Positions 45,596-62,137 of a stretch of DNA of 64,000 bases are shown in pieces. The DNA comes from Escherichia phage phi92. The DNA is taken from sequence record NC_023693.1. The stretch is one strand, 5' to 3'. Every line of letters begins with the position of its first letter. The first letter of the stretch is position 1. Under the pieces are notes generated by a model. That model was not told the origin of the DNA and did not search any database. It saw only the letters and a list, made by a program, of their open reading frames with translations. The translations under genes and the position numbers were made by a program.

Positions 45596-47755
45596 ATGAA
45601 ACAGGCTATTTTTACTGTAACTCGAAATACGAGAGTAAATGCCAGTTCATTCAGCTATAAGACCGTCGATGGAACGGCGGTCGCTGGTAGAGATTATGTA
45701 GCTAAACAGGGAACAGTAACGTTCCCTTCTGATGCAGATTCTGCTACTGTGGTGGTTGATGTATATGAACGTCCGGCAAACTCTTTAGATCTTTATTTTA
45801 CTCTTGAGATTACTAGCATAAGTCAAAATAACATGATGATCAATGAAGAAATTCGTTGTGTTATTACGACTAATCAATCGAATACAACCCCGCTAACTTG
45901 GCCTGTTGTGAAGTCTAGAATGTTTGATCCTAAGTTTTGGACAATAGATTCTCAATCAACAGAAAGTTGTTCTATTATCTCTAATGGTGATTCTTTCACA
46001 GCAAGAATGGTTAATAGGACAGTGGCTGGTCTTGCTGGGATTATTTGGTCAACTTACGATAAATATGATCACAAAGGATTAGGCTACCAAGAACATTCTG
46101 ACTTAAGTAAAGAGAAACTTTGGTTTAAAATGGAACTTAGTCAAGGTGTTCCTGGATTAAAAGAAGAAAAATTAATACCATCCTTAACAGTGACACTGAA
46201 GGATGAAACAGTTCATTATGTATCTCTAAACTTTTATGCAGAAGAAGTTTCAGAAGATGGTAAGACAGCAACAATCAAACTAGATTTCTCAAATTTAAAA
46301 TCTGGGCCAGAAAATGATATTGTTGTTGACACTACACAGATAGATAATATGTTCTTCTCCTTGATCTCCGCAAGGTATCAAGAAATTGAAGATGTTATAC
46401 CTGTAGACAATATGGATCTTTCCTTTAAGTTTACCATACTAGAGCCTGATACTGGTTACAGTATGATGAATATGGGTAATTTAAATGTTCCGGCGCACAC
46501 CATAAGAATGTGTACATCTTATGATGATATGTATAACCTAACCCCGGAGCGAGTTATTTCTAATACCTATAGATTAGGTTATAGGGATATGATTAACCAT
46601 TATAATGGTATGTCACACTATTATCAATTCAGTTGGGATGCTGGCTCTAATAAATGGGCTTTGAACAGAACAGAATATTTAAACCCAGCAACAGAAGCCT
46701 GGTTTGATAATTTCCACGCTAATGCAAAAGCTATGGGCTACACAGTAATGAACTCCTTAAGTTTTGAACTTATGAGTACAGTGTGTCCTGTAGAATGGGT
46801 ACAACATACTTGGAATGATGATCTGGCTGCTACAGGTTATGAGCCACCAAGTTATGTTTTATCTCCTTCAATTGATGAAGGGATGAATTATTTACAAGGT
46901 GTAATAAATAAGATAGCTTCTATATCCGCTGCTAATGATCTTCCGGTTATTATTCAGGTTGGTGAACCGTGGTGGTGGTATAACACAGCTACCAATCTAC
47001 CGTGTATTTATGATTATACAACCAAAGTTGCATTTAATAATGAAACTGGATTATATGCACAAGATGTTGGTACAGTTAAAAATTATAAAACTGGTACACC
47101 ATATGATGAATATTATGCATTCCTATCTAAAACATTAGGACTGCGTGTTGCTAAATTTGCAACAGATACCAGATTAGCATACCCTGGAGCGAAAGTTACA
47201 TTGTTACCATTTGTACCATCCATCTTAGGTAATGGTATGATGGAGTTTGTTAACTTCCCTAAAGATTATTATATTCCAGAAAACTTTGACTTTTATTGTT
47301 CAGAATGTTATGATTGGTTGTTGGAAGGTAAGATGGAAAGATCTTTTGACGCTATCACAATACCTAATGAGCAACTAGGTTTTAGTTATGATAAGATACA
47401 TTATCTTGCAGGGTTTGTTCCAGATGCAACTCTAGCACCATTATATGGCTTTGATCCTGAATCAAACTATAGGACATATTTGTGGAAAATGATTATAGGT
47501 AATATTGTATTGAATGACCAGAAGTTTGTTGGTTTATATCAATACATATGGGCTTATCCACAAATAATGCATGATTCAATAACTGTTCTTAATTCAAAAT
47601 CCCAAGTTTTTTATATGGGTAATGTGCCTTTGAATTGCTATTTGCAAGATATCACTCTTAAACAGGTAAATGTTACGATTGCTACTATAAGCGGAATTAC
47701 ACTAGCCACTAAATCTGGAGAAGATTTAGTAACAACACAAAAATTTTATATATAG
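45596..47755 (+). CDS. large tail-associated protein (719 aa)
   Basis: long ORF in tail-fibre region. Confidence 0.4.
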   Translation: MKQAIFTVTRNTRVNASSFSYKTVDGTAVAGRDYVAKQGTVTFPSDADSATVVVDVYERPANSLDLYFTLEITSISQNNMMINEEIRCVITTNQSNTTPLTWPVVKSRMFDPKFWTIDSQSTESCSIISNGDSFTARMVNRTVAGLAGIIWSTYDKYDHKGLGYQEHSDLSKEKLWFKMELSQGVPGLKEEKLIPSLTVTLKDETVHYVSLNFYAEEVSEDGKTATIKLDFSNLKSGPENDIVVDTTQIDNMFFSLISARYQEIEDVIPVDNMDLSFKFTILEPDTGYSMMNMGNLNVPAHTIRMCTSYDDMYNLTPERVISNTYRLGYRDMINHYNGMSHYYQFSWDAGSNKWALNRTEYLNPATEAWFDNFHANAKAMGYTVMNSLSFELMSTVCPVEWVQHTWNDDLAATGYEPPSYVLSPSIDEGMNYLQGVINKIASISAANDLPVIIQVGEPWWWYNTATNLPCIYDYTTKVAFNNETGLYAQDVGTVKNYKTGTPYDEYYAFLSKTLGLRVAKFATDTRLAYPGAKVTLLPFVPSILGNGMMEFVNFPKDYYIPENFDFYCSECYDWLLEGKMERSFDAITIPNEQLGFSYDKIHYLAGFVPDATLAPLYGFDPESNYRTYLWKMIIGNIVLNDQKFVGLYQYIWAYPQIMHDSITVLNSKSQVFYMGNVPLNCYLQDITLKQVNVTIATISGITLATKSGEDLVTTQKFYI

Positions 47756-47763
47756 GAGTAAAA

Positions 47764-50520
47764 ATGTCAACTACAATTACTAATTTACCCGAAACATCAA
47801 AAGTTAATAGTTCTGATTACCTGGTTTTAGACCAGCCTGATAAGACTGTTAAAAGCACAGTTTCCAACTTTCTTGCTGACACTGGGGTGGTTTTAGCCAC
47901 CCAGCTAAAAGATACTTCTGGTGCTACCAAGTATCCAGAACTTCAAATGTCGCGCTGGAGAGATGAAGGTGATCCTAGAGGATGGGGAGCAGTAGGTGAC
48001 GGAGCAACAGACGATACTAATGCTATAACACAGCTTCTTGCTGCTATGCCTGATGGATGGATTATTGATGGGCGTAATCTCACTTTCAAGGTTACAACAC
48101 TACCAGATATAAGCAAGTTTAAAAACGCTGCTTTTGTTTACGAGCGTATTGTTGGACAACCCCTTACTTATGTATCTGAAGGTTTCTTCGATGGAAATCT
48201 GACAAAGATTACGGATACACCATTTTACAATGCTTGGACGCAAGATAAGACGTTTGTTTATGATAATGTTATATATGCACCATTTATGGCTGGCGAACGT
48301 CATGGTGTACAAAACCTCCATGTAGCGTGGGTTAAATCAGGAGATGATGGACAAACTTGGTCTATGCCAGAATGGTTAACTCCAATTCATCCTGATTATA
48401 CAGCAGACAAAGTTAACTATCATTGTATGAGTATGGGTGTATGTGGTAATCGCCTATATGCAGTCATCGAAACCCGTTACTTATCTAACATGCGATTGAA
48501 GAAAGCAGAACTTTGGTCACGTCCAATGCCTTATTATAGAAGGCCAACTGGAGGTATAACAATTAGTTCTGGGTCTACTACGGCGACGATTGTTTTAAAA
48601 AAGCATGGTCTTAAAGTTGGAGATGCTGTTAACTTTTCCAATTCGGGTGCAACTGGTGTATCTGGAAATATGACTGTTGCATCTGTAATTAACAAGGATA
48701 CATTTACGGTTACATTAGCAAGGGCTGCCACATCTAATATAGATAATACAGGAACTACTTGGCATTTTGGAACACGTTTCTGGGATAGCCCTTGGGAAAT
48801 TACAGAATTACCAGATGTTGCCTATTCTACTAATGCAGACTTATGTGTTACAGAAACCCATAGTTTTACAGTTATAGATGATGATAATTACACTTTTGCT
48901 GTGGGTTATCACAATGGTGATATTTCCCCAAGAAGATTAGGTATTTTGTACTTCAATAATGCTTACTCTGACCCAAGTTCTTTTACTCGTAGAACAATTA
49001 GTCAAGAATATGCTGACAATGCAGCAGAACCCTGCATTAAATATTACGATGGAATTTTATATTTAACTACCAGGGGTACTTCAACTTCTGCTGCTGGTTC
49101 TACATTAGCAATGAGTGCTGACCTTGGAGAAAACTGGAATTACTTAAGATTTCCTAACAACGTTCATCATACAAACCTACCATTTGCAAAAGTTGGTGAT
49201 TATCTTTATATCTTTGGTACAGAACGTTCATTTGGAGAGTGGGAAGGGCAAGAACTAGATAATAGATATAAAGGTACGTATCCTCGAACGTTTATGTGCA
49301 AGATTAATGTATCTTCATGGCCTGTATCTTTATCCAATGTTCAATGGTTTAATATCACTGATCAGATATATCAAGGGCATATTGTTAATTCTGCATGTGG
49401 CGTTGGTTCGGTATGTGTTAAAGATGGCTGGTTATATTATATCTTTGGAGGTGAAGATTTCTTATCTCCTTGGTCTATCGGAGATAATAGTAAAAAATTA
49501 TGGTACAAGCATGATGGTCATCCAGCCGATTTATATAGCTATAGACTAAAGATTACCGAACATGATTTTGTATCACGTGACTTCAAATATGGAGCTACGC
49601 CAAACCGTACATTGCCTGTATCTATGGGTACAGATGGGGTAAGGCATGTCTCAGCCCCTGTAACTTTTGATAATGATGTACAGATGTACTCTTTAACAGT
49701 TACTGGTCTTGAGCATGATGGGACACAACAATCTGCCGTTAGAGTAAAATTAGATGGTGATTATGGGGTTATTGCAAAAAATATCCCAATAAAAAATCCT
49801 TCTGAACAGCGACTAATCTTATGTGGAGGAGAAACTCCTTACACTACTGATGGATCGTTATTACAATTGTATGGTTCAAACCATACGTATCCAAACAGAG
49901 CAATTTTATATGCCCCAGGAGGAGCATATACACAAAATAATTTCATGCCGTACTTAGATGGACAAGTTTCATTAGGTGGTGCATCTAATAGATGGTCAGA
50001 AGTGTATGCATCTACAGGAACCATTAATACTTCAGACGGAACATTAAAAACTAAACCTACAGAGATTGAAGATATTTTACTGAAAGCATGGGAAGATATT
50101 CATGTAATCTCTTACCAATGGCTTAGTGCTGTCGCGGAGAAAGGAGATTCTGCGCGTATTCATTTTGGTGTTATCGCTCAAGATGTAAGAGATATTCTGA
50201 TTAATTATGGTTTAATGGATGAAAATAGTACTGATTGTAAGTATGCTTTTCTATGTTATGATGAATACCCTGCTATGTATGATAGTGTTGTTACGGGACA
50301 AAAAGAAATCACTTTACTTGACGATGAAGGAAATAATGTAATTGATGAAGAAGGTAATCCAGTAACAATTGTAGAAGATGTTGTAGAAACTATCGAAGTA
50401 ATTCCAGCAGGATCGCGATGGGGTATCCGCGCTGACCAAATGTTTTTTATTGAGATGGCTTATCAACGTAAAAAGTTAAAAGCTCTTGAAGAAAGACTTG
50501 CAACCCTAGAAAGTAAATAA
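47764..50520 (+). CDS. tailspike/tail fibre with beta-helix-type motif and C-terminal self-cleaving chaperone domain
   Basis: AVGDGATDDTNAI motif; C-terminal SDGTLKTKPTEIEDILLKAWEDIHVISYQW matches the intramolecular chaperone (S74-type) signature; followed by terminator. Confidence 0.7.
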   Translation: MSTTITNLPETSKVNSSDYLVLDQPDKTVKSTVSNFLADTGVVLATQLKDTSGATKYPELQMSRWRDEGDPRGWGAVGDGATDDTNAITQLLAAMPDGWIIDGRNLTFKVTTLPDISKFKNAAFVYERIVGQPLTYVSEGFFDGNLTKITDTPFYNAWTQDKTFVYDNVIYAPFMAGERHGVQNLHVAWVKSGDDGQTWSMPEWLTPIHPDYTADKVNYHCMSMGVCGNRLYAVIETRYLSNMRLKKAELWSRPMPYYRRPTGGITISSGSTTATIVLKKHGLKVGDAVNFSNSGATGVSGNMTVASVINKDTFTVTLARAATSNIDNTGTTWHFGTRFWDSPWEITELPDVAYSTNADLCVTETHSFTVIDDDNYTFAVGYHNGDISPRRLGILYFNNAYSDPSSFTRRTISQEYADNAAEPCIKYYDGILYLTTRGTSTSAAGSTLAMSADLGENWNYLRFPNNVHHTNLPFAKVGDYLYIFGTERSFGEWEGQELDNRYKGTYPRTFMCKINVSSWPVSLSNVQWFNITDQIYQGHIVNSACGVGSVCVKDGWLYYIFGGEDFLSPWSIGDNSKKLWYKHDGHPADLYSYRLKITEHDFVSRDFKYGATPNRTLPVSMGTDGVRHVSAPVTFDNDVQMYSLTVTGLEHDGTQQSAVRVKLDGDYGVIAKNIPIKNPSEQRLILCGGETPYTTDGSLLQLYGSNHTYPNRAILYAPGGAYTQNNFMPYLDGQVSLGGASNRWSEVYASTGTINTSDGTLKTKPTEIEDILLKAWEDIHVISYQWLSAVAEKGDSARIHFGVIAQDVRDILINYGLMDENSTDCKYAFLCYDEYPAMYDSVVTGQKEITLLDDEGNNVIDEEGNPVTIVEDVVETIEVIPAGSRWGIRADQMFFIEMAYQRKKLKALEERLATLESK

Positions 50521-54521: not shown

Positions 54522-54863
54522 ATGGAGCTAACAGAAGTATGGGATATCGCTAAAGAGGCGATTATCCCTCTTATTGGTGTAATCTGGGTGGTCTTCAAAC
54601 AGAAGATAGATGATATAGCAAGTGATTTGGATAAAATGGAAGACAAATACCGCGAACTAGAAAAGAAGTTGGTGTTTGTTGAATCCACTTATGCTACCAA
54701 AGCAGAACTTGCTCAAATGCTTAACCAGATCAACTCTACATTAATGGCAAATAATACTGCCTTAGAACAGAAGATTGAAAAAATAATGGATTTAAAAAAT
54801 GCTCCTGTTCAATTAATGCTAGAGGAGATTACGAAGCGCACACAAAGTAAGGACAAAAATTAA
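54522..54863 (+). CDS. hypothetical protein with N-terminal hydrophobic helix and coiled coil
   Basis: ORF only. Confidence 0.3.
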   Translation: MELTEVWDIAKEAIIPLIGVIWVVFKQKIDDIASDLDKMEDKYRELEKKLVFVESTYATKAELAQMLNQINSTLMANNTALEQKIEKIMDLKNAPVQLMLEEITKRTQSKDKN

Positions 54864-57277
54864 TGGCGAATTTTCCAACATATCCTGCTACGACACTAGA
54901 ACAAGGTGTTGATCTGGTTATATTCTCGTCTAACCAGATGCATGATGTTATTAATGGGGATGCTACAGCAACTGTAGAAACCGAAACAGGTTTAATACCT
55001 ACACTGCGTAAAGCACTTGTTGATAACTTCTTCTTTAAGAGTCCTGTTGCTTGGTCAGCAGGATCAACTGAAACTGTATTTAACCAGTTACGTTATTTTG
55101 AAAACGGTATCTTGAGTGGGTACTATTATGCCCCATCTGCCACTACTGCGAACCCTGTACCTATGCAGGGCACACCTGTAGGGGACAGTAACTGGACTCT
55201 GTACGCTCTTAAAACTGAACAGTTAGCTTCAGATGTGTATCCTTGGTATTTTAAAGGTGCTACAGGATATGAAACAGAAATCAGTCCTCCTTATATCTTT
55301 GATAATGCTATTGTCACCATTAACGGTGTAATTCAGATTCAAGGTGAAGCATTTACTATCAAAGATAGTAAAATTATTCTGGCAGAACCATTAGGTTTAG
55401 ATCCGTCTACTGGTCTACCTAACAAATTGTTTGCTTTTATTGGTAAAACAACAGCCTCTACTTCTTACGTAGAGAAAAACCTTTTGTCATCTACCACTGG
55501 TGCAGCAATGGTTGGTCTTCCATCTGGAGGCAACCTGTTACAAGCTCAATACTTTGTAACGCCTGAGCAGTTTGGTGCAATTGGTGATGGAGTTACCGAT
55601 GATACTCAAGCAATTTTAAAAACTATTACTTTCGCTAACACGAATAACATTCAAGTACGTGCAGATAAGAATTATAGATTCACAAGCTCAATTGCTATGT
55701 CTGGTGTTCGTTGGTATGGTGGTACATTCACTGGTAACGGTGGAACAATGATTTCTACTGTGTCCTGTTGGATGGAAAACGTTCGCTTTGAAAAATGTTA
55801 TGTTAAGATGTTAGGTGGTGATTGCCGATTCTATCGTAATATCTTCTCCAACGCAACATCTACAGCAGCATTCTTAATGCAAGCAATGACAAGTGAAGGT
55901 ACGTTGGACTTCAGTTACAACGAAATGTATGGTTGTAAATATGCGATCCTGCAACAAGGTACTGGAGAAGTAATGACCTATGGGCGTTACTCTAACAACT
56001 ATATTCACGATATCAAAGGTGATGCTATTGAACTTAACGTAGTTCAAAAACACTACACTGAAGGTTTGATTATCGAGAATAACCACATTGCTAACGTAGA
56101 TGCTTCTGGACAAGGTGCAAACTGGGGTATTGGTATTGGTGTAGCAGGTAGTGGCCCATATGGTGTTGATGTTCCTGATTCACAATATGTACGTAACTTC
56201 AGTATCGTTGGGAATAGGGTTTACAATTGCCGTCAATGTCTACACGTTGAAATGGGTAAAAACTTCACGATACGTGATAATGAAGTTTATCCTAACACAG
56301 CAGTTTCAACAGGTACAGGTTTAACTACTTGTGGTGTTGCATTATACGGATGCCAAGATTTTGAAGTTGATGGTTTAACTGGTTATCTGCTTAATGATCC
56401 ATCTGTTTCAACACGCATGGTCTTTATTGACTGGGGTGTTAACAATGGTAGATATGCGGGGCCACCAATTAACTTTACAATTAAGAATTTGGATATTCCA
56501 GAATCTTCAATTGAGATTGCAACATCTGGATCAGATGCCTGGGAAAACTCTACAATTGTTAGTAATATCAATTGTAATGTTTTTAAATGGCGTGGGCTAC
56601 CATCTAGCTCTACCTTTAATAATATTCGTTGCCGTAGTATTGACTTTATTGGTCAACACGGAAGCGGAGAAGGAAGTGGTGGCGGTTTCTATACTCGCAG
56701 CCAATTCACGTATATGAAGTGGGTAGGATGTACAGCACTTAGCGGAGATGAAACAACAGTTTCTTTTGCTAAAATCTACACTGATCGTTGCGATCAGGTT
56801 GGAAATAACTTTGGTGTTCCAACTGCTGTTGATGGTACAGGTCATCGTGGGCCAGTTTTAACTACTATTTCTGAACAATATTTTACAGCTTATGATGAAT
56901 TCCCAGGTGGGCGTGAATTCCCTACTGGAACAGTTATTCATTGTGCAAGCGGTAAAAAACATGTTGTTACAGTAGGTGGTGCTTTCTTTAGTGACAACGA
57001 GAAAATAAAAGCAACTGTTACAGGTCAAACCTATCTACAGTCTAATGCTTTAAACTGGGCTAGTAATGGCTACGCTAAAGCAGCAGGTACTAAGATTGTT
57101 ATTCCAGGTGCAGGTGCAAATGGCGGCGATCTTGTGACAACTATAGCACGTGCTACATACGTGACAAATAGTTTGTACACAATAGATATTGCAGATCCAA
57201 TTGTAACACCTACAGCAGAGAATACACAAATTAAAGCTCTGAATCCTGTTACTTTTGTTACTGTCAATAATGCTTAA
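54863..57277 (+). CDS. tailspike with right-handed beta-helix (pectate-lyase-like) domain
   Basis: GAIGDGVTDDTQAI motif typical of beta-helix tailspike depolymerases; 804 aa; terminator follows. Confidence 0.65.
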   Translation: MANFPTYPATTLEQGVDLVIFSSNQMHDVINGDATATVETETGLIPTLRKALVDNFFFKSPVAWSAGSTETVFNQLRYFENGILSGYYYAPSATTANPVPMQGTPVGDSNWTLYALKTEQLASDVYPWYFKGATGYETEISPPYIFDNAIVTINGVIQIQGEAFTIKDSKIILAEPLGLDPSTGLPNKLFAFIGKTTASTSYVEKNLLSSTTGAAMVGLPSGGNLLQAQYFVTPEQFGAIGDGVTDDTQAILKTITFANTNNIQVRADKNYRFTSSIAMSGVRWYGGTFTGNGGTMISTVSCWMENVRFEKCYVKMLGGDCRFYRNIFSNATSTAAFLMQAMTSEGTLDFSYNEMYGCKYAILQQGTGEVMTYGRYSNNYIHDIKGDAIELNVVQKHYTEGLIIENNHIANVDASGQGANWGIGIGVAGSGPYGVDVPDSQYVRNFSIVGNRVYNCRQCLHVEMGKNFTIRDNEVYPNTAVSTGTGLTTCGVALYGCQDFEVDGLTGYLLNDPSVSTRMVFIDWGVNNGRYAGPPINFTIKNLDIPESSIEIATSGSDAWENSTIVSNINCNVFKWRGLPSSSTFNNIRCRSIDFIGQHGSGEGSGGGFYTRSQFTYMKWVGCTALSGDETTVSFAKIYTDRCDQVGNNFGVPTAVDGTGHRGPVLTTISEQYFTAYDEFPGGREFPTGTVIHCASGKKHVVTVGGAFFSDNEKIKATVTGQTYLQSNALNWASNGYAKAAGTKIVIPGAGANGGDLVTTIARATYVTNSLYTIDIADPIVTPTAENTQIKALNPVTFVTVNNA

Positions 57278-57318: not shown

Positions 57319-59280
57319 GTGATTTTAACACGTCCAAATAGTGCCATTGCAGACATGGTAGAGTCTCGCTATAGAAAGCGTAGAAGTTTTGCAAGTGGTT
57401 TTACCTTAAGAGATGCTCGTGAAGCATTGCTCTTTGAAACTGACGGTAACTACTATCAGTGGAAAGGTTCTCTACCTAAAGTTGTACCTGCTAACTCTAC
57501 TCCTACATCTACTGGAGGGATTTCAGATACAGCTTGGAAAAATGTGGGTAATGCAGATGACATTGCTCAAATAGAATCAGAATTAGATGCTATTGAAGCT
57601 GAAATTGAAGATCTTAGAGAATCCATCCCAGAAGCTGGTAAATCAGCTTACCAAATTGCCGTAGACAATGGTTTCCAAGGTACTGAGACACAGTGGTTGG
57701 CTTCTTTAAAAGGTGATCCAGGTGCTCCATTAAAGCTACTAGGGACGCTATCTAATACCAACCAATTACCTACAACTGGAAACAATGCAGGGGATGCATG
57801 GATTGTAGGCGAGAATATGTATGCTTGGGATGGTACTGCTTGGAGAAAAGTAAACTCACAGGGGCCAGAAGGTAAATCTGCTTATGAAGTATGGCTTGCA
57901 GCAGGAAACGAAGGTACAGAACTAGATTATCTTGCCGCAATTAAAGGTGATAAAGGGGAGCCTGGCCCAGAGGGGCCACAAGGTGTGCCAGGTAATAATG
58001 CTAATGGTTTTGATTACCAAGGCGCAGCTAATTCCGTTTCAGATCTTCCTTCTGCATCTCCTGGAAACACATCTCAAGCATGGAGTATTGGTACATATCT
58101 ATACGTGTCAAACGGTGTAGAATGGATCAATATGGGCGCTATAGTGGGGCCAAAAGGAGATAAAGGCGACAAAGGAGATAAGGGTAACACTGGTGATTCA
58201 GCTTATCAAGTCTGGTTAAATGCTGGTAACGTTGGTACTATTGACGAATATATTGCCTCTCTGAAAGGAGAAAAAGGTGATAAGGGAGACAAGGGTGATC
58301 AAGGTGCACAGGGTATACAAGGCTTGACGGGGCCAACTGGTGCAGGGTTGACCATTATTGACATTCTGACTAGCACTTCTGAACTACCACAAACTGGAGA
58401 AGATGGTGATGGTTATCTGATCAATAATGAACTTTGGGTCTGGTTGCAAGGAGCCACAGAGTGGACAAATGTTGGTCGTTTAGCTGGTACTCCAATCACT
58501 GCAAAAGGATACGTTGCGTCTGCAAGTGCACTTCCTCCTACAGCCAATTACGGTGATGCTTATCTGACGGAAGATACAGGTCATCTTTACATTTACACCT
58601 ATGATGAACAAACTCAAACTGCTGAATATGTAGATATGGGTAGTTTGAAAGGTGATAAGGGTGAAAAAGGTGACGCTGGTACTAACGGTACAGACGGTGC
58701 AACTTGGATTGTTAAAACAACAGATCCAATCTCTAGTGATGGTAAACAAGGTGATTATGCCTTTAATATCTCCACTGGCGAGGTGTTCTTAAAAACATCT
58801 GCAACTATCTGGACTTCTCAAGGTACACTACCTAGTATCACAGATGCACCTAGTGATGGTAAGACTTATGCTCGTAAAGATGGAGCATGGGAAGAACTCA
58901 CTAATTCTGTAGATGGTCAAGATATAGTTCCAACAAAAGTAACAACTAATTTTATAGAGGTTACAGCATATACTAACAATTCTGTTACAGGGGACTGGAC
59001 ACCTCCAGGAACACATAACATGAATGTGTTGAATCTTACTGGTAACTCTACTATAAAAGCATGGCCTGGTGTCGAAGATAGCACAAAACCTAAACCATTC
59101 TCTGCAATAGTTTATCTTATCCAAGATGCCACTGGAGGTCGTACTGTTACTTTAGATCCATCTTACAAAGTAATTGGTTCCAGTGATATTAATACAGATC
59201 CTAACGGAGTAACAATACTACAACTAACATATTGTGGTGTTGGCGATTACGTGGATGCTATTGTTGCTAAACGCACATAA
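57319..59280 (+). CDS. tail fibre with collagen-like Gly-X-Y repeats
   Basis: runs such as GDKGEPGPEGPQGVPG and GEKGDKGDKGDQGAQGIQGLTGPTGAG. Confidence 0.65.
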   Translation: MILTRPNSAIADMVESRYRKRRSFASGFTLRDAREALLFETDGNYYQWKGSLPKVVPANSTPTSTGGISDTAWKNVGNADDIAQIESELDAIEAEIEDLRESIPEAGKSAYQIAVDNGFQGTETQWLASLKGDPGAPLKLLGTLSNTNQLPTTGNNAGDAWIVGENMYAWDGTAWRKVNSQGPEGKSAYEVWLAAGNEGTELDYLAAIKGDKGEPGPEGPQGVPGNNANGFDYQGAANSVSDLPSASPGNTSQAWSIGTYLYVSNGVEWINMGAIVGPKGDKGDKGDKGNTGDSAYQVWLNAGNVGTIDEYIASLKGEKGDKGDKGDQGAQGIQGLTGPTGAGLTIIDILTSTSELPQTGEDGDGYLINNELWVWLQGATEWTNVGRLAGTPITAKGYVASASALPPTANYGDAYLTEDTGHLYIYTYDEQTQTAEYVDMGSLKGDKGEKGDAGTNGTDGATWIVKTTDPISSDGKQGDYAFNISTGEVFLKTSATIWTSQGTLPSITDAPSDGKTYARKDGAWEELTNSVDGQDIVPTKVTTNFIEVTAYTNNSVTGDWTPPGTHNMNVLNLTGNSTIKAWPGVEDSTKPKPFSAIVYLIQDATGGRTVTLDPSYKVIGSSDINTDPNGVTILQLTYCGVGDYVDAIVAKRT

Positions 59281-59282
59281 TC

Positions 59283-59306
59283 AAAGCCCCTTCGGGGGCT
59301 TATTAT
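59283..59306 (+). terminator. rho-independent terminator
   Basis: AGCCCC-TTCG-GGGGCT followed by T-rich tract. Confidence 0.65.
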
Positions 59307-59319
59307 TTAAGGAGATTAA

Positions 59320-59928
59320 ATGTATCCTATTCCTTTATTTATGTCAACAACATCAGCTTCAGTAGTAACAGCTACATCTATAACTACTTCCTCTATTGGT
59401 ATTGCAATAGTTGGTGGTAAAAAACAACTGACATACACAGTTACACCGGAAGATGGTGCATTATTTGATATAGCTTTTTCATCTTCAGATAATACCAAAA
59501 TGGTTATAGATAATAGTGGTATGATGGAGTTTGTTGCCGAAGGTGGTTTTGATGCAATAATGACAGCTAAAAATAATTTAGGTGCTGTCTTAACTGATCA
59601 ATCTGGTGGCTATGCTTCAGAATTAAGTGTGTACACTGAAAGTCTATCGGCTATGGATGTAGGCACTACTCAACAGTTGGTTGCTACAATCAGTCCAGAA
59701 GGTGCTAAAGACCTTCCAGATATGGTAATTACATACACCACAACAGATCCAGAAGTAGCTACTGTAAGCCCTACAGGGTTAATAACTGCTCTTAAAGATG
59801 GCGGTTGCCGTATAGGTTGTACTGCAACGTATCAAGGAACAGTTGTGGCCTCTGATAGGTCTTATTTAGGTGTTAATGCTATTCCTGTTATTTCTAATGT
59901 AACAGCCGTATCTTTAATAACTCAATAG
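59320..59928 (+). CDS. Ig-like (Big_2-type) domain protein
   Basis: two Ig-like repeats (VATVSPTGLITALKDGG pattern), Ser/Thr-rich N-terminus. Confidence 0.5.
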   Translation: MYPIPLFMSTTSASVVTATSITTSSIGIAIVGGKKQLTYTVTPEDGALFDIAFSSSDNTKMVIDNSGMMEFVAEGGFDAIMTAKNNLGAVLTDQSGGYASELSVYTESLSAMDVGTTQQLVATISPEGAKDLPDMVITYTTTDPEVATVSPTGLITALKDGGCRIGCTATYQGTVVASDRSYLGVNAIPVISNVTAVSLITQ

Positions 59929-60982
59929 CTACAGATGATTCGTTCATTAAAGAAGTTATTGTCTTTGCTGGACAAGATAACGTAAATGCACACTTTACAG
60001 AACTATCTGGTGCAAATAAAGCAGCAATGAGTAGCACAACAGCCCGTAATGCATATGCTACGCAACGTGGTTTAGCAAATGCTGAAGTTCTTCCGTGTTA
60101 AATACAGCTTCTGGATCATCAGCAGCAGATAAATATGCTGACGATAAAGCTGGAACAGGTACACCAGATAACTACTGGTATGATCTGGATAACACAGCAG
60201 ATGGGCCATGCTTAACTAACTTTATCACTAAAGTCACACCTTATGCAAGTAAGGTTAAAGCAATTATTTGGGGACAAGGTGAAAATGATGCTGTATCAGC
60301 ATCTTCGACTGTTGCAGGTAGGTACAGTAACACTACACGTTACCATGATGCTACGATAGCTATCTTTGATAAGATGCGTACAATAGTTCCTGCTTCTCAA
60401 GCAAAAATTGTTTGGCAGATCCTAGGACGTTCTTATTTATATGGTGTAGAAGTTAATGGTGTGGATTGGCAGAAGTACAGAAATGTACAAAGAACCATCT
60501 CTACAGCACGTGATGATGTTATCATTGGTTCTTGGGTAGATGGTGCTGAACGTTACAGTGGTTATGTTTATGAAGAAGGTATTGATGGTCGTATCCATTA
60601 TATTTCTTCTGTATACCAAACAGCAGCTACAAAACTTGCTAAATCAGCAGCAGACGGTACAGATTTAACATCAACGTCACCTGTTTGGGTTGATATGTCT
60701 GTTCCAACAGGAGGAGCCGCTGTAAGACAAGCTAACCAAGATGTAATTATCTCTTGGGAACCAGCAGGATATACTAAACATTACTTCCGAAATGTAAACG
60801 TCCTCACAGCAGCAATTCTTACAGAACAAACCCTGGATACTAACACTTACACATTTACTTATGCAGATCAGGTTGAACAATATGGATTTGCAGCAGGTAC
60901 AACAGTGTTTGATGTTGCACACTATGATGCTGATAATGACGTGTTATCACCTCTTGTCAGATTTACAGTCAATGTTACATAA
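59898..60982 (+). pseudogene. SGNH/SASA-like esterase gene split across two reading frames (frameshifted or recoded)
   Basis: open frame 59898-60098 with no ATG near its start encodes VFAGQDNVNAH (GQSN-like block); continues in another frame from 60095 with IIWGQGENDA; the preceding Ig-like ORF ends at 59928 in a third frame. Confidence 0.4.
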
Positions 60983-60985
60983 ACA

Positions 60986-61010
60986 AAAAGGAGCCATTAG
61001 GCTCCTTTTC
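60986..61010. terminator. bidirectional terminator hairpin (copy 1 of repeated hairpin)
   Basis: AAAAGGAGCC-ATTA-GGCTCCTTTT between convergent genes. Confidence 0.65.
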
Positions 61011-61017
61011 TTTTATC

Positions 61018-61449
61018 TTAATCAGTGAAAATTACGCTTACATCTTCTTTAGAGAAGAGTTTATGATCTTCACCTTTTGTCTCAAGAGTTTCATACAGAT
61101 TAAGAAGTTCTGAAACGTCTTTCTCTACCAGTTTCTTCAATGTTGCAATTTTCTGTTTGCGACTCTTAATACGTTCAGCTACAACCTTACGCTGGTATCC
61201 GGCAGTACGATAACCTGAGAAAGTTACACCAGTGAGACTTGCAGTTACAGGATCGTAGTGACGTTCAATCTGAAATTTATTAAAAGGTACAGCGTCATCA
61301 CGAATAATCTTACCGCCATTACTTACTTGACGAAGACCAGTAACTTGCTCCAGTCGTGCCATAGAAATCTTTGGAGACAGACCAGAGTCTAGGTTCATAC
61401 CATTGTTAATCAGTGCTTTCAGGGTGATTTTGCTGTTCAGTGTACTCAT
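61018..61449 (-). CDS. hypothetical protein (143 aa)
   Basis: ORF downstream of methyltransferase gene on the same strand. Confidence 0.4.
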   Translation of the reverse strand: MSTLNSKITLKALINNGMNLDSGLSPKISMARLEQVTGLRQVSNGGKIIRDDAVPFNKFQIERHYDPVTASLTGVTFSGYRTAGYQRKVVAERIKSRKQKIATLKKLVEKDVSELLNLYETLETKGEDHKLFSKEDVSVIFTD

Positions 61450-62137
61450 TTAGTCGTTCCTCCGCTTGCTTAAAAATATTTACATCGGCTTCACAGCCAA
61501 AGTATTCTCTACCTGTTAAAAGTGCCGCAACTTGTGTTGTTGCACTTCCAGAGAAGAAGTCTAAGACTACATCTCCTTCGTTGGTGTGTATATTAATAAG
61601 GTCACAAAACAAAGTCAAGTGTTTTTGTGTTGGATGAAAACGATCTGCTCCTTGATAGATAGGATACTCAAACACACCCTTATGGTAGGAAGCATTGAAG
61701 GTTGGCTTCGAACCTTTAACACAAACAATAGCCATCTCTTTAGCGTTACTAAGATAGTTAACACCACTGTTGATGGGTACAGGGTTTGTTTTAATCCATT
61801 CAATAGTACGGAACATACGAAAACCAAGCGGTTCAAGGATTTCACGTAGCTCCTGGATCTTCCAGATATCATACCAAACTATGCAAGTACCACCTTTTCT
61901 AAGCACCCTGTAGGCTTCTTTGAATACTTCTTTAAAGTAAGGAATATCTACAACATCCCAATCACCAAAGTTGTAAGATACACGGAATCTATCCGTATCT
62001 TTTCCAGTCGGCTCTCCAGATTGAAAATTTGTGTCACGAGAAATAGCATATGGTGGGTCAGTAAGAATCAAATCTACACTATTGCTTTCGAGGGTTTGCA
62101 GGTAGTTTAATGCGGTGTTGTTTACAAATTCGCTCAT
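61406..62137 (-). CDS. DNA methyltransferase (amino-methyltransferase, N6-adenine or N4-cytosine)
   Basis: catalytic DPPY (LILTDPPYA) near N-terminus and AdoMet-binding FFSGSATT near C-terminus. Confidence 0.8.
   Translation of the reverse strand: MSEFVNNTALNYLQTLESNSVDLILTDPPYAISRDTNFQSGEPTGKDTDRFRVSYNFGDWDVVDIPYFKEVFKEAYRVLRKGGTCIVWYDIWKIQELREILEPLGFRMFRTIEWIKTNPVPINSGVNYLSNAKEMAIVCVKGSKPTFNASYHKGVFEYPIYQGADRFHPTQKHLTLFCDLINIHTNEGDVVLDFFSGSATTQVAALLTGREYFGCEADVNIFKQAEERLNEYTEQQNHPESTD

What the first reader, a model, noticed from the sequence alone, without database searches (positions are those of the whole stretch)
59320..60982. Ig-like domain gene followed by an SGNH/SASA-like esterase split over three reading frames
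The Ig-like ORF stops at 59928. A second frame, open from 59898 to 60098 with no ATG near its start, encodes VFAGQDN (a GQSN-like block in which the usual Ser is Asp). A third frame from 60095 encodes IIWGQGENDA and the rest of an esterase-like domain. This could be a decaying receptor-modifying esterase, a sequencing or assembly frameshift, or deliberate recoding. Its position at the end of the tail-fibre module fits a glycan deacetylase on a fibre.
Basis: partly seen in the sequence, partly recalled or inferred. Interest (0 to 1): 0.55.

Follow-up and report, generated by a model that had tools for sequence, protein, structure and literature searches.

The report
Broken tail-protein gene of phage phi92
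The three-frame "esterase" is real: it is the wreck of one 628-residue tail-protein gene of coliphage phi92, broken by a 226-base deletion and a 2-base duplication, so it is an ordinary pseudogene, though relatives tend to break the same gene at the same spot.

Summary
The window is phage phi92. ORF 59320-59928 is exactly Phi92_gp152, and the GTG ORF 60095-60982 is exactly Phi92_gp153.

Close relatives (about 98-99% DNA identity, e.g. phage arall) carry one uninterrupted 628-aa gene here. Its layout is two Big_2 Ig-like domains, a beta-sandwich, an SGNH/SASA-like domain and a second beta-sandwich.

phi92 differs by two lesions. One is a 226-nt deletion at 59908/59909, next to a 7-nt direct repeat, which removes the first beta-sandwich. 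The other is a GT-to-GTGT duplication at 60095-60098. Each shifts the frame, which gives the three frames.

None of the other 75 arall genes compared in the window is disrupted, and the remnant has no private point substitutions. The damage is therefore gene-specific and recent. Recoding is rejected. A sequencing artefact cannot be formally excluded.

The SGNH fold is supported by a model (pLDDT 92.5) that matches phage N4 gp65 and SGNH esterases. However, the nucleophile Ser is Asp in every orthologue, whereas most distant homologues have GQSN. Even the intact protein is therefore probably not a classical esterase.

Unexpectedly, orthologues in many other genomes are also truncated, with at least 10 independent breaks within nt 563-665.

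The parts
59284..59301 (+). Terminator-like hairpin between gp151 (tail fibre, 57319-59280) and the gp152 start
   Evidence: Consensus scan; sequence.
59309..59314 (+). Shine-Dalgarno-like AAGGAG, 5 nt upstream of ATG 59320
   Evidence: Read directly from the sequence.
59320..59928 (+). Frame A = Phi92_gp152, 202 aa. Residues 1-196 are the ancestral N-terminus with two Big_2 Ig-like domains. From residue 197 on the reading crosses the deletion junction: V197 happens to be preserved and the tail SLITQ is out of frame.
   Evidence: PHROG 32204/11922 'tail protein'.
59903..59909 (+). Deletion junction, carrying the single retained copy of the 7-nt direct repeat CAGCCGT. Compared with intact orthologues, 226 nt (gene nt 590-815, aa 197-272, the first beta-sandwich domain) are missing. 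The two repeat copies lie 225 nt apart in arall, so a clean slip would have been in frame; phi92 lacks one further T.
   Evidence: The junction is absent from all searched collections.
59909..60094 (+). Frame B segment = ancestral aa 273-334. It holds the start of the SGNH/SASA-like domain, including block I VFAGQDN (Asp codon 59976-59978 at the position of the nucleophile Ser). It has no usable start codon.
   Evidence: In the model the Asp sits at the start of the helix after strand 1.
60095..60098 (+). GTGT, a tandem duplication of GT (2-nt insertion relative to intact orthologues). This is the second frameshift.
60095..60982 (+). Frame C = Phi92_gp153 as annotated (GTG start, 295 aa), equal to ancestral aa 335-628. 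It covers the rest of the SGNH/SASA-like domain: block III WGQGENDA at 60269-60292, block V His at 60596-60598, domain end near 60670. The C-terminal beta-sandwich follows at about 60683-60979. There is no SD before the GTG, and strand 1, block I and the first helices are missing.
60986..61009 (.). Bidirectional terminator-like hairpin shared with the convergent 143-aa gene (61018-61449, minus strand)

Best explanation
The region is a recently inactivated copy of a single tail-accessory protein gene of phage phi92.

The ancestral product, 628 aa, is still intact in most Justusliebigvirus phages. Its predicted layout is:
- a short N-terminal motif, MYPIP;
- two Big_2 Ig-like domains, which I infer form the conserved virion-proximal module;
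- a beta-sandwich;
- an SGNH/SASA-like domain homologous to domains of the phage N4 receptor-binding sheath protein gp65;
- a C-terminal beta-sandwich.

Two lesions broke the gene in phi92. A deletion next to the 7-nt repeat CAGCCGT removed the first beta-sandwich and shifted the frame (226 nt). A GT tandem duplication 186 nt downstream shifted the frame again.

Shown: only gp152, the Ig-like stub of about 196 native residues, keeps a ribosome-binding site and a start codon.

Inferred: the stub is made and may still sit on the virion, while the frame B and frame C pieces are untranslated remnants. Even if gp153 were translated it would lack strand 1 and block I of the fold.

Inferred: the intact SGNH-like module is a non-catalytic or non-canonical module, possibly glycan-binding, because its nucleophile Ser is Asp in the whole clade. 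It appears dispensable, because it has been lost repeatedly in related phages.
For: One gene, two lesions:
- Global alignment to arall_18 gives 589 + 186 + 886 collinear nt with 13 mismatches, one 226-nt gap and one 2-nt insertion.
- The repeat and duplication context is shown.

Intact elsewhere:
- tblastn with the 628-aa protein gives one piece at 100% coverage in 52 Justusliebigvirus records.
- Every megablast hit spanning the junction carries the extra 226 nt.

Gene-specific damage:
- 75 of 76 arall CDS have single-frame, stop-free orthologues in the window. The only exception is this gene.
- No other uncompensated coding indel was found.

Recent damage:
- There are 0 private substitutions in 1,661 aligned positions against 12 full-length alleles.
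- The nearest allele, L026, differs at 2 sites.

Identity:
- Exact matches to Phi92_gp152 and gp153.
- An endosialidase tailspike lies at 47764-50520. PMC7552041 describes this gene as unique to phi92 within the group.

Fold:
- The domain model has pLDDT 92.5 and pTM 0.89.
- Foldseek finds N4 gp65 (TM 0.75-0.77, E about 1e-13), then the SGNH esterases 1zmb and 2apj, GDSL, CE2 and SIAE.
- A profile search against PDB sequences finds N4 gp65 at E=1e-85, with two copies of the domain.
- GQSN-type homologues reach the Pfam SASA gathering score (28.7, 37.0 and 27.6 bits against 24.8).

Ser to Asp:
- D295 is invariant in 17 orthologues, while most distant homologues have GQSN.

Dispensability:
- Independent disruptions occur in UAB_1 and in L006, L007, L009, L015 and L018-L022.
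Against: - No reads are available, so the two lesions cannot be verified in the physical phage.
- No independent assembly carries the same 202-aa product.
- The extra single T lost at the deletion junction could be a base-calling error. If so, frame A would run into frame B, but the GT duplication would still truncate the protein.
- Whether gp152 is present in virions, and whether gp153 is translated, has not been tested here. RefSeq calls both 'tail protein'.
- Non-catalytic status is inferred from sequence only. An Asp-based or other mechanism is not excluded.
Confidence: 0.85

Rival explanations
1. Sequencing or assembly artefact: the real phi92 genome has an intact gene, or one with an in-frame deletion, and the deposited sequence carries errors at 59908/59909 and 60095-60098.
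For: No independent assembly has the same product. The junction is not found in any collection. The deletion is 226 nt rather than the 225 nt expected from a clean slip between the 7-nt repeats, so one T of a TT may simply be miscalled.
Against: Both lesions fall in one gene, while 75 other genes compared and all intergenic comparisons show no uncompensated coding indel. Neither lesion is a homopolymer-length error. A 226-nt loss next to a short direct repeat is a typical biological deletion. Very similar deletions with nearby left ends exist in independent genomes and metagenomes.
Confidence: 0.08
2. Deliberate recoding: two programmed -1 ribosomal frameshifts (A to B near 59898-59928, B to C at 60095-60101) yield a full-length Ig-esterase protein lacking the first beta-sandwich.
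For: The frames overlap slightly at both junctions, and both changes are in the -1 direction.
Against: Orthologues encode everything in one frame. The frame changes are created by indels private to this genome. I saw no X XXY YYZ slippery heptamer in either overlap. The B/C overlap is only about 5 nt (sequence). The other broken alleles have quite different lesions.
Confidence: 0.01
3. Two functional separate genes: gp152 (Ig-like decoration or tail protein) and gp153 (an independent C-terminal module) are both expressed, as annotated in the phi92 record.
For: Both are annotated as 'tail protein' in GenBank/RefSeq. Split or truncated arrangements recur in relatives (UAB_1 gp162/gp163; L015).
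Against: gp153 starts at a GTG created next to the duplication and has no SD. It lacks the first about 62 residues of the SGNH-like fold, which lie in frame B. In other truncated alleles the downstream fragments differ in extent or are absent (L009 keeps almost nothing), so no conserved 'gp153' unit exists.
Confidence: 0.06

Closest known systems
Intact orthologues in Justusliebigvirus (e.g. arall_18 QHR67462.1, muut YP_009985829.1, 628 aa; long 939-aa form in KMB37 WQN06861.1, annotated 'tail carbohydrate esterase')
   Same: Same locus, directly after the colanidase tailspike and the gp151-like fibre and before the convergent 143-aa and methyltransferase genes. Nucleotide identity is 98-99%. 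The domain order and the GQDN motif are the same.
   Different: phi92 lacks gene nt 590-815 and has an extra GT. The reading frame is broken twice, and the gene is annotated as two genes, gp152 and gp153.
Phage N4 gp65, the non-contractile tail sheath / receptor-binding protein (PDB 9lc0, 9yf4, 9yf5, 9yft)
   Same: gp65 contains two copies of the same SGNH-like domain (residues 432-602 and 715-982). The profile E-value is 1e-85 and the structural TM-score 0.75-0.77. Its second copy also lacks the nucleophile Ser (GINQ) and the block-V His (alignment).
   Different: gp65 is a 1,382-aa, 10-domain sheath subunit of a podovirus (PMC13434306). The phi92-type protein is a 628-aa Ig-fronted accessory protein of a myovirus. 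In phi92 the NGR-recognising gp65-like piece (NCTSP_N + TIM barrel) is assigned to a different gene, gp142 (bioRxiv 10.64898/2026.04.02.716166; Pfam).
SASA / SGNH carbohydrate esterases (Pfam PF03629; structures 1zmb, 2apj; sialate O-acetylesterase 8f9p)
   Same: Alpha/beta/alpha SGNH fold. Block III is QGE(N)D-like and block V has His. Distant family members with GQSN score above the SASA gathering threshold.
   Different: The phi92-clade protein itself scores 14-16 bits against a cut-off of 24.8. It has Asp in place of the nucleophile Ser, and His is not conserved in the sister clade.
[quoted passage not shown]
   Same: An SGNH-type module carried on a phage adsorption organelle.
   Different: Those enzymes are reported to be active; the catalytic details of G7C gp63.1 are from my own knowledge and were not tested here. 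The phi92-clade module lacks the Ser, and in phi92 it is also broken. No sequence comparison with those proteins was run.

Membership tests
SGNH hydrolase superfamily / Pfam SASA (PF03629) | Three-layer alpha/beta/alpha SGNH (flavodoxin-like) fold | tested here: met
   AF2 model of the orthologous domain: pLDDT 92.5. Foldseek hits to 1zmb, 2apj, GDSL, CE2 and SIAE at E 2e-6 to 5e-4.
SGNH hydrolase superfamily / Pfam SASA (PF03629) | Block I nucleophile Ser (GQSN / GDS) | tested here: not met
   The motif is GQDN in phi92 and in all 13 close orthologues aligned, and GGDN in the sister clade. Most distant homologues have GQSN.
SGNH hydrolase superfamily / Pfam SASA (PF03629) | Block III Asn (GxND / QGExN) and block V His | tested here: inconclusive
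   phi92 has WGQGENDA and GRIHY. In the 40%-identical sister clade the Asn is Gln, and the His is Gln in 2 of 4 sequences.
SGNH hydrolase superfamily / Pfam SASA (PF03629) | Score at or above the Pfam gathering threshold (24.8 bits) | tested here: not met
   Scores are 15.7 bits (arall), 14.3 (KMB37) and 16.3 (window frame C). They are met only transitively, through homologues at 27.6-37.0 bits.
SGNH hydrolase superfamily / Pfam SASA (PF03629) | Esterase activity on O-acetylated glycans | not testable with these tools
   Needs an enzyme assay on an intact orthologue.
Pseudogene (disrupted copy of a functional gene) | Intact single-ORF orthologues in close relatives, with disruption by identifiable lesions | tested here: met
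   226-nt deletion plus 2-nt duplication.
Pseudogene (disrupted copy of a functional gene) | Downstream fragments lack their own translation signals | tested here: met
   Frame B has no start codon giving 30 aa or more. The frame C GTG has no SD upstream. Lack of expression was not itself tested.
Programmed ribosomal frameshifting | The two-frame arrangement is conserved among relatives, with a slippery site and a stimulatory element | tested here: not met
   Relatives use a single frame. I saw no canonical heptamer in the overlaps (sequence).
N4 gp65-type SGNH-like receptor-binding module | Significant sequence and structure similarity to gp65 residues 432-602 and 715-982 | tested here: met
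   hmmsearch E=1e-85. Foldseek TM 0.75-0.77.
N4 gp65-type SGNH-like receptor-binding module | Binds NfrA or the NGR glycan | not testable with these tools
   The literature assigns NGR recognition in phi92-like phages to gp142, not to this gene.

The most novel reading that the evidence does not exclude
The phi92 lesion may be one instance of a genus-wide, recurrent, position-focused truncation of this tail protein. In independent Justusliebigvirus genomes and sewage or gut metagenome contigs, at least 10 different lesions begin within gene nt 563-665. Five large deletions have left ends at nt 563, 569, 580, 590 and 599 and quite different right ends (nt 815 to 2792). This region is the linker after the second Ig domain, which is also where homology to Phapecoctavirus proteins stops (aa 188). 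That points either to a mechanistic deletion hotspot or to selection for a clean 'Ig-only' stub. The second option would amount to a natural on/off polymorphism of a lectin-like pseudo-esterase module, for example to change host range, to avoid sticking to decoy glycans, or to escape a defence that senses the module.
Probability: 0.3. Interest if true: 0.55.

Novelty: new member of a known kind. Interest (0 to 1): 0.3.

Why it matters
- **Annotation of a reference phage.** phi92 is the type phage of its genus and a structural model for multivalent adsorption. Its annotated 'tail proteins' gp152 and gp153 are fragments of one gene. They should not be modelled or fitted into cryo-EM density as two native proteins, and phi92 may lack an appendage module that its relatives carry.
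- **Function labels.** The 'tail carbohydrate esterase' label on intact orthologues is questionable because the nucleophile Ser is missing.
- **A possible dispensable or counter-selected module.** Repeated truncation of the gene at one boundary across the genus hints at such a receptor-binding module. This matters for host-range engineering.

Tried and rejected
- **Recoding:** rejected after alignment with intact orthologues.
- **Independent copies of the phi92 deletion junction or GT duplication:** none found. I searched exact patterns in viral (junction and GT duplication), genome and metagenome contigs (junction), megablast in E. coli genomes and an exact protein look-up.
- **Full-length AF2 model of the 936-aa orthologue:** too poor in the SGNH-like part to use (pLDDT 35-74). 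I replaced it with a domain-only model built from a deeper alignment.
- **Word-indexed homologue search with the domain alone:** returned only 2 fragments. The exhaustive representative search was needed to reach the GQSN relatives.
- **Single-sequence Pfam scan:** sub-threshold SASA hits only.
- **Structural cause for the deletion hotspot:** the DNA fold has z = -1.3, and only short AACAGYYRTGG repeats are present. Nothing convincing.
- **Contig look-ups for the truncated cluster members:** I sampled the locus through identical neighbouring proteins instead.
- **Literature:** the Schwarzer 2012 phi92 paper is not held. No held paper mentions phi92 gp152 or gp153.

Full report
**1. Observation**

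- Frame A runs from ATG 59320 to TAG 59926-59928 (202 aa).
- Frame B is open from 59898 to the stop at 60099-60101. It encodes ...IATDDSFIKEVIVFAGQDNVNAHF... and has no start codon that would give an ORF of 30 aa or more.
- Frame C runs from GTG 60095 to TAA 60980-60982 (295 aa). It contains IIWGQGENDA and GRIHY.

Pfam finds two Big_2 domains in frame A (E=7e-15). In frame C it finds only a sub-threshold SASA match (16.3 bits against a cut-off of 24.8).

**2. What the region is**

Megablast of 59200-61050 against phage genomes finds 58 records, mostly E. coli Justusliebigvirus. In all the best ones the 1,851-nt query spans 2,075 nt or more, in two or three pieces.

In phage arall (99% identity), muut and others, the locus is one 1,887-nt gene of 628 aa. 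In KMB37, alia, Paula and others it is a 2,820-nt, 939-aa version with an extra C-terminal domain.

A global alignment of the window with arall_18 gives three collinear blocks:

| Gene nt | Window coordinates |
|---|---|
| 1-589 | 59320-59908 |
| 816-1001 | 59909-60094 |
| 1002-1887 | 60097-60982 |

There are 13 mismatches. So phi92 lacks 226 nt (gene nt 590-815) and has 2 extra nt.

- **The deletion.** It lies next to a 7-nt direct repeat, CAGCCGT, at gene nt 584-590 and 809-815. The two copies are 225 nt apart, so a clean slip would have been in frame. The window lacks one further T.
- **The insertion.** It is a tandem duplication, GT to GTGT, at 60095-60098.
- **What the deletion removes.** It takes out aa 197-272. 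In the AF2 model of an orthologue this is an all-beta domain between the second Ig domain and the SGNH-like domain.

Each lesion changes the frame, which explains the three frames exactly.

**3. Identity of the genome**

- Exact-sequence look-ups show that frame A is Phi92_gp152.
- The 295-aa GTG ORF is Phi92_gp153. Both come from the 148,612-bp phi92 record.
- Consistently, the window carries an endosialidase tailspike at 47764-50520. PMC7552041 describes this gene as unique to phi92 within this group.
- By position, 54863-57277 is the colanidase gp150 and 57319-59280 is gp151.
- The phi92 record itself appears to be absent from the searchable phage collection.

**4. Real lesion or error?**

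Evidence that the damage is specific to this gene:

- No phage record shares the junction. All 53 hits to an 80-nt junction probe are split by 226 nt.
- The junction was not found in the viral, genome or metagenome contig collections, nor the gene region in complete E. coli genomes.
- Across the rest of the 64-kb window, alignment to arall shows only compensated micro-indels, or indels in intergenic and tRNA regions.
- 75 of 76 arall proteins have single-frame, stop-free orthologues in the window. The only exception is this gene.

Two non-homopolymer lesions in one gene and none elsewhere argue against random sequencing error, but without reads this stays an inference.

The remnant has no private point substitutions against 12 full-length alleles. 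It differs from the closest one (L026) at 2 of 1,661 sites. The inactivation is therefore recent, and could have happened during decades of laboratory propagation or shortly before isolation.

**5. Recoding**

Recoding is rejected for four reasons.

- All 52 Justusliebigvirus records that cover the whole gene encode it as one tblastn piece at 100% coverage.
- The frame changes coincide with indels private to phi92.
- I saw no canonical slippery heptamer in either overlap.
- Other broken alleles carry unrelated lesions (section 7).

**6. Nature of the 'esterase' domain**

An exhaustive HMMER search seeded with a 44%-identical full-length homologue (P0033) found about 39 representatives that carry the same beta-sandwich / SGNH-like / beta-sandwich module inside large multi-domain proteins. 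I aligned the domain from these representatives.

| Motif | Most distant homologues | phi92 clade | Sister clade |
|---|---|---|---|
| Block I | GQSN | GQDN | GGDN |
| Block III | W(A/G)QGE(N)DA | WGQGENDA | W-SLGEQDA |
| Block V | (W/F)IHY | RIHY | RI(H/Q)Y |

- Other members have GQAN, GQMN or a 'GINSL' variant in block I.
- D295 is invariant in 17 orthologues.
- Several GQSN homologues exceed the Pfam SASA gathering score.
- A profile of the domain hits phage N4 gp65 (PDB 9lc0/9yf4) at E=1e-85 with two copies, and weakly hits 2apj, 1zmb and 4k3u.
- A domain-only AF2 model has pLDDT 92.5 and pTM 0.89.
- That model matches N4 gp65 (TM 0.75-0.77), then SGNH esterases: 1zmb, 2apj, GDSL, CE2, PatB and SIAE.
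- In the model the Asp sits at the start of the helix after strand 1, which is the nucleophile position in SGNH hydrolases.

The fold assignment therefore holds. However, a defining catalytic feature, the Ser, is absent in the whole clade. I regard the intact protein as a probable pseudo-enzyme or binding module rather than a demonstrated deacetylase.

The literature assigns recognition of the NGR glycan in phi92-like phages to gp142. gp142 corresponds to window 45596-47755, which carries the NCTSP_N and TIM-barrel domains also found in N4 gp65. The domain repertoire of N4 gp65 is thus distributed over two phi92 genes. This is my observation. I could not establish its functional meaning.

**7. 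Recurrent truncation in relatives (beyond the finding)**

Cluster look-ups and neighbour-gene look-ups turned up many other broken alleles.

DNA-level lesions:

| Source | Lesion (gene nt) |
|---|---|
| Salmonella phage UAB_1 | deletion 569-1677 |
| L009, sewage metagenome | deletion 563-2792 of the long form |
| L015 | deletion 580-1475 |
| L019, L022 | break at 599 |
| L020 | -1 at 178 |
| L018, L021, L027 | -1 at 178 and +1 after 285 |
| L006 | nonsense at codon 353 |
| L007 | +4 TAAC after 1117 |

Lesions known at protein level only: stubs of 196, 197, 204, 205, 209 and 221 aa, and several C-terminal fragments.

- Counting phi92, at least 10 independent lesions start within nt 563-665.
- The five large deletions seen at DNA level have left ends at nt 563-599 and right ends from 815 to 2792.
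- Homology to Phapecoctavirus tail proteins, where the same Ig pair sits mid-protein, ends at aa 188, which is nt 564. The hotspot therefore coincides with a module boundary.
- Of 20 de-duplicated genomic contexts, 12 were intact and 8 were disrupted. De-duplication over-represents the variants.
- I found no DNA structure that explains the hotspot.
- The cause is open: a mutational hotspot, or selection for a clean Ig-only stub.

**8. Mechanistic reading**

- Shown: there was one ancestral gene, it carries two lesions, only gp152 keeps an SD and a start codon, the domain has the SGNH fold, and the nucleophile Ser is Asp.
- Inferred: gp152 is produced as an Ig-only stub that may still attach to the virion.
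- Inferred: frames B and C are silent.
- Inferred: the lost module is a dispensable, probably non-catalytic glycan-interacting domain.

**9. Verdict**

The finding is a real feature with an ordinary explanation: a recent pseudogene in a well-known phage, annotated as two genes. Interest is low to moderate. The boundary-focused recurrent truncation across the genus, and the degenerate N4-gp65-like SGNH module, are the parts worth following up.

Noticed in passing
Orthologues: L008 (UAB_1), L009, L015, L018-L022, L027, L006, L007; proteins P0266-P0285. The equivalent window position is about 59882-59985.: Orthologues of this gene are truncated again and again. At least 10 independent lesions start within gene nt 563-665. 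Five large deletions share left ends at nt 563-599 and have different right ends (815, 1475, 1677, 2792; L019/L022 rearranged). The truncated alleles occur in cultured phages and in sewage or gut metagenome contigs. The cause is unknown.
   Followed up: partly
window 59976-59978 (Asp of GQDN); orthologue alignments A1-A3: The SGNH nucleophile Ser is Asp in every phi92-clade orthologue, and the block-V His is Gln in some sister-clade members. Most distant homologues keep GQSN and His. The 'tail carbohydrate esterase' label on intact orthologues may therefore be wrong.
   Followed up: partly
window 59903-59909: The two CAGCCGT repeats are exactly 225 nt (75 codons) apart in intact genes, so a clean slip would have excised the beta-sandwich domain in frame. 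phi92 lacks one more T, which is what breaks the frame.
   Followed up: yes
window 47764-50520 (+): A 918-aa endosialidase tailspike (End_N_terminal, End_beta_propel, End_beta_barrel, End_tail_spike, Peptidase_S74) sits in a 2.9-kb segment that is absent from arall. Its nearest DNA relatives (about 95-96%) are Phapecoctavirus endosialidase genes, which suggests horizontal acquisition. This is phi92 gp143.
   Followed up: partly
window 45596-47755 (+): This 719-aa protein has Calx-beta, NCTSP_N and TIM-barrel_NCTSP domains shared with N4 gp65. By position it is phi92 gp142, the proposed NGR-glycan RBP. Together with the SGNH-like module of gp152/153, the N4 gp65 domain set is split over two phi92 genes.
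   Followed up: partly
Phage records MG065639, MG065656, MG065689, MG065645 (hits H3-H5, H93): Records labelled 'Campylobacter phage' (host C. jejuni) are about 98% identical to E. coli Justusliebigvirus over this locus. They look like mislabelled or contaminant genomes.
   Followed up: no
L002:3121-5940 versus L001:3121-5007: The gene comes in two natural lengths, 628 aa and 936-939 aa. The long form adds about 311 residues that are mostly beta-strand and have no Pfam match. phi92 derives from the short form.
   Followed up: no
L018, L021, L027 (gene nt 178 and 285); L020 (nt 178 only): One circulating lineage carries a 1-nt deletion in an AAAA run at nt 178 and, in most members, a 1-nt insertion after nt 285 that restores the frame but leaves stops in between. 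This may be a failed or partial compensation.
   Followed up: no
window 61406-61449 (- strand): The convergent 143-aa gene (61018-61449) and the N6/N4 DNA methyltransferase gene (61406-62137) overlap by 44 nt. The arrangement is conserved in all relatives inspected.
   Followed up: no
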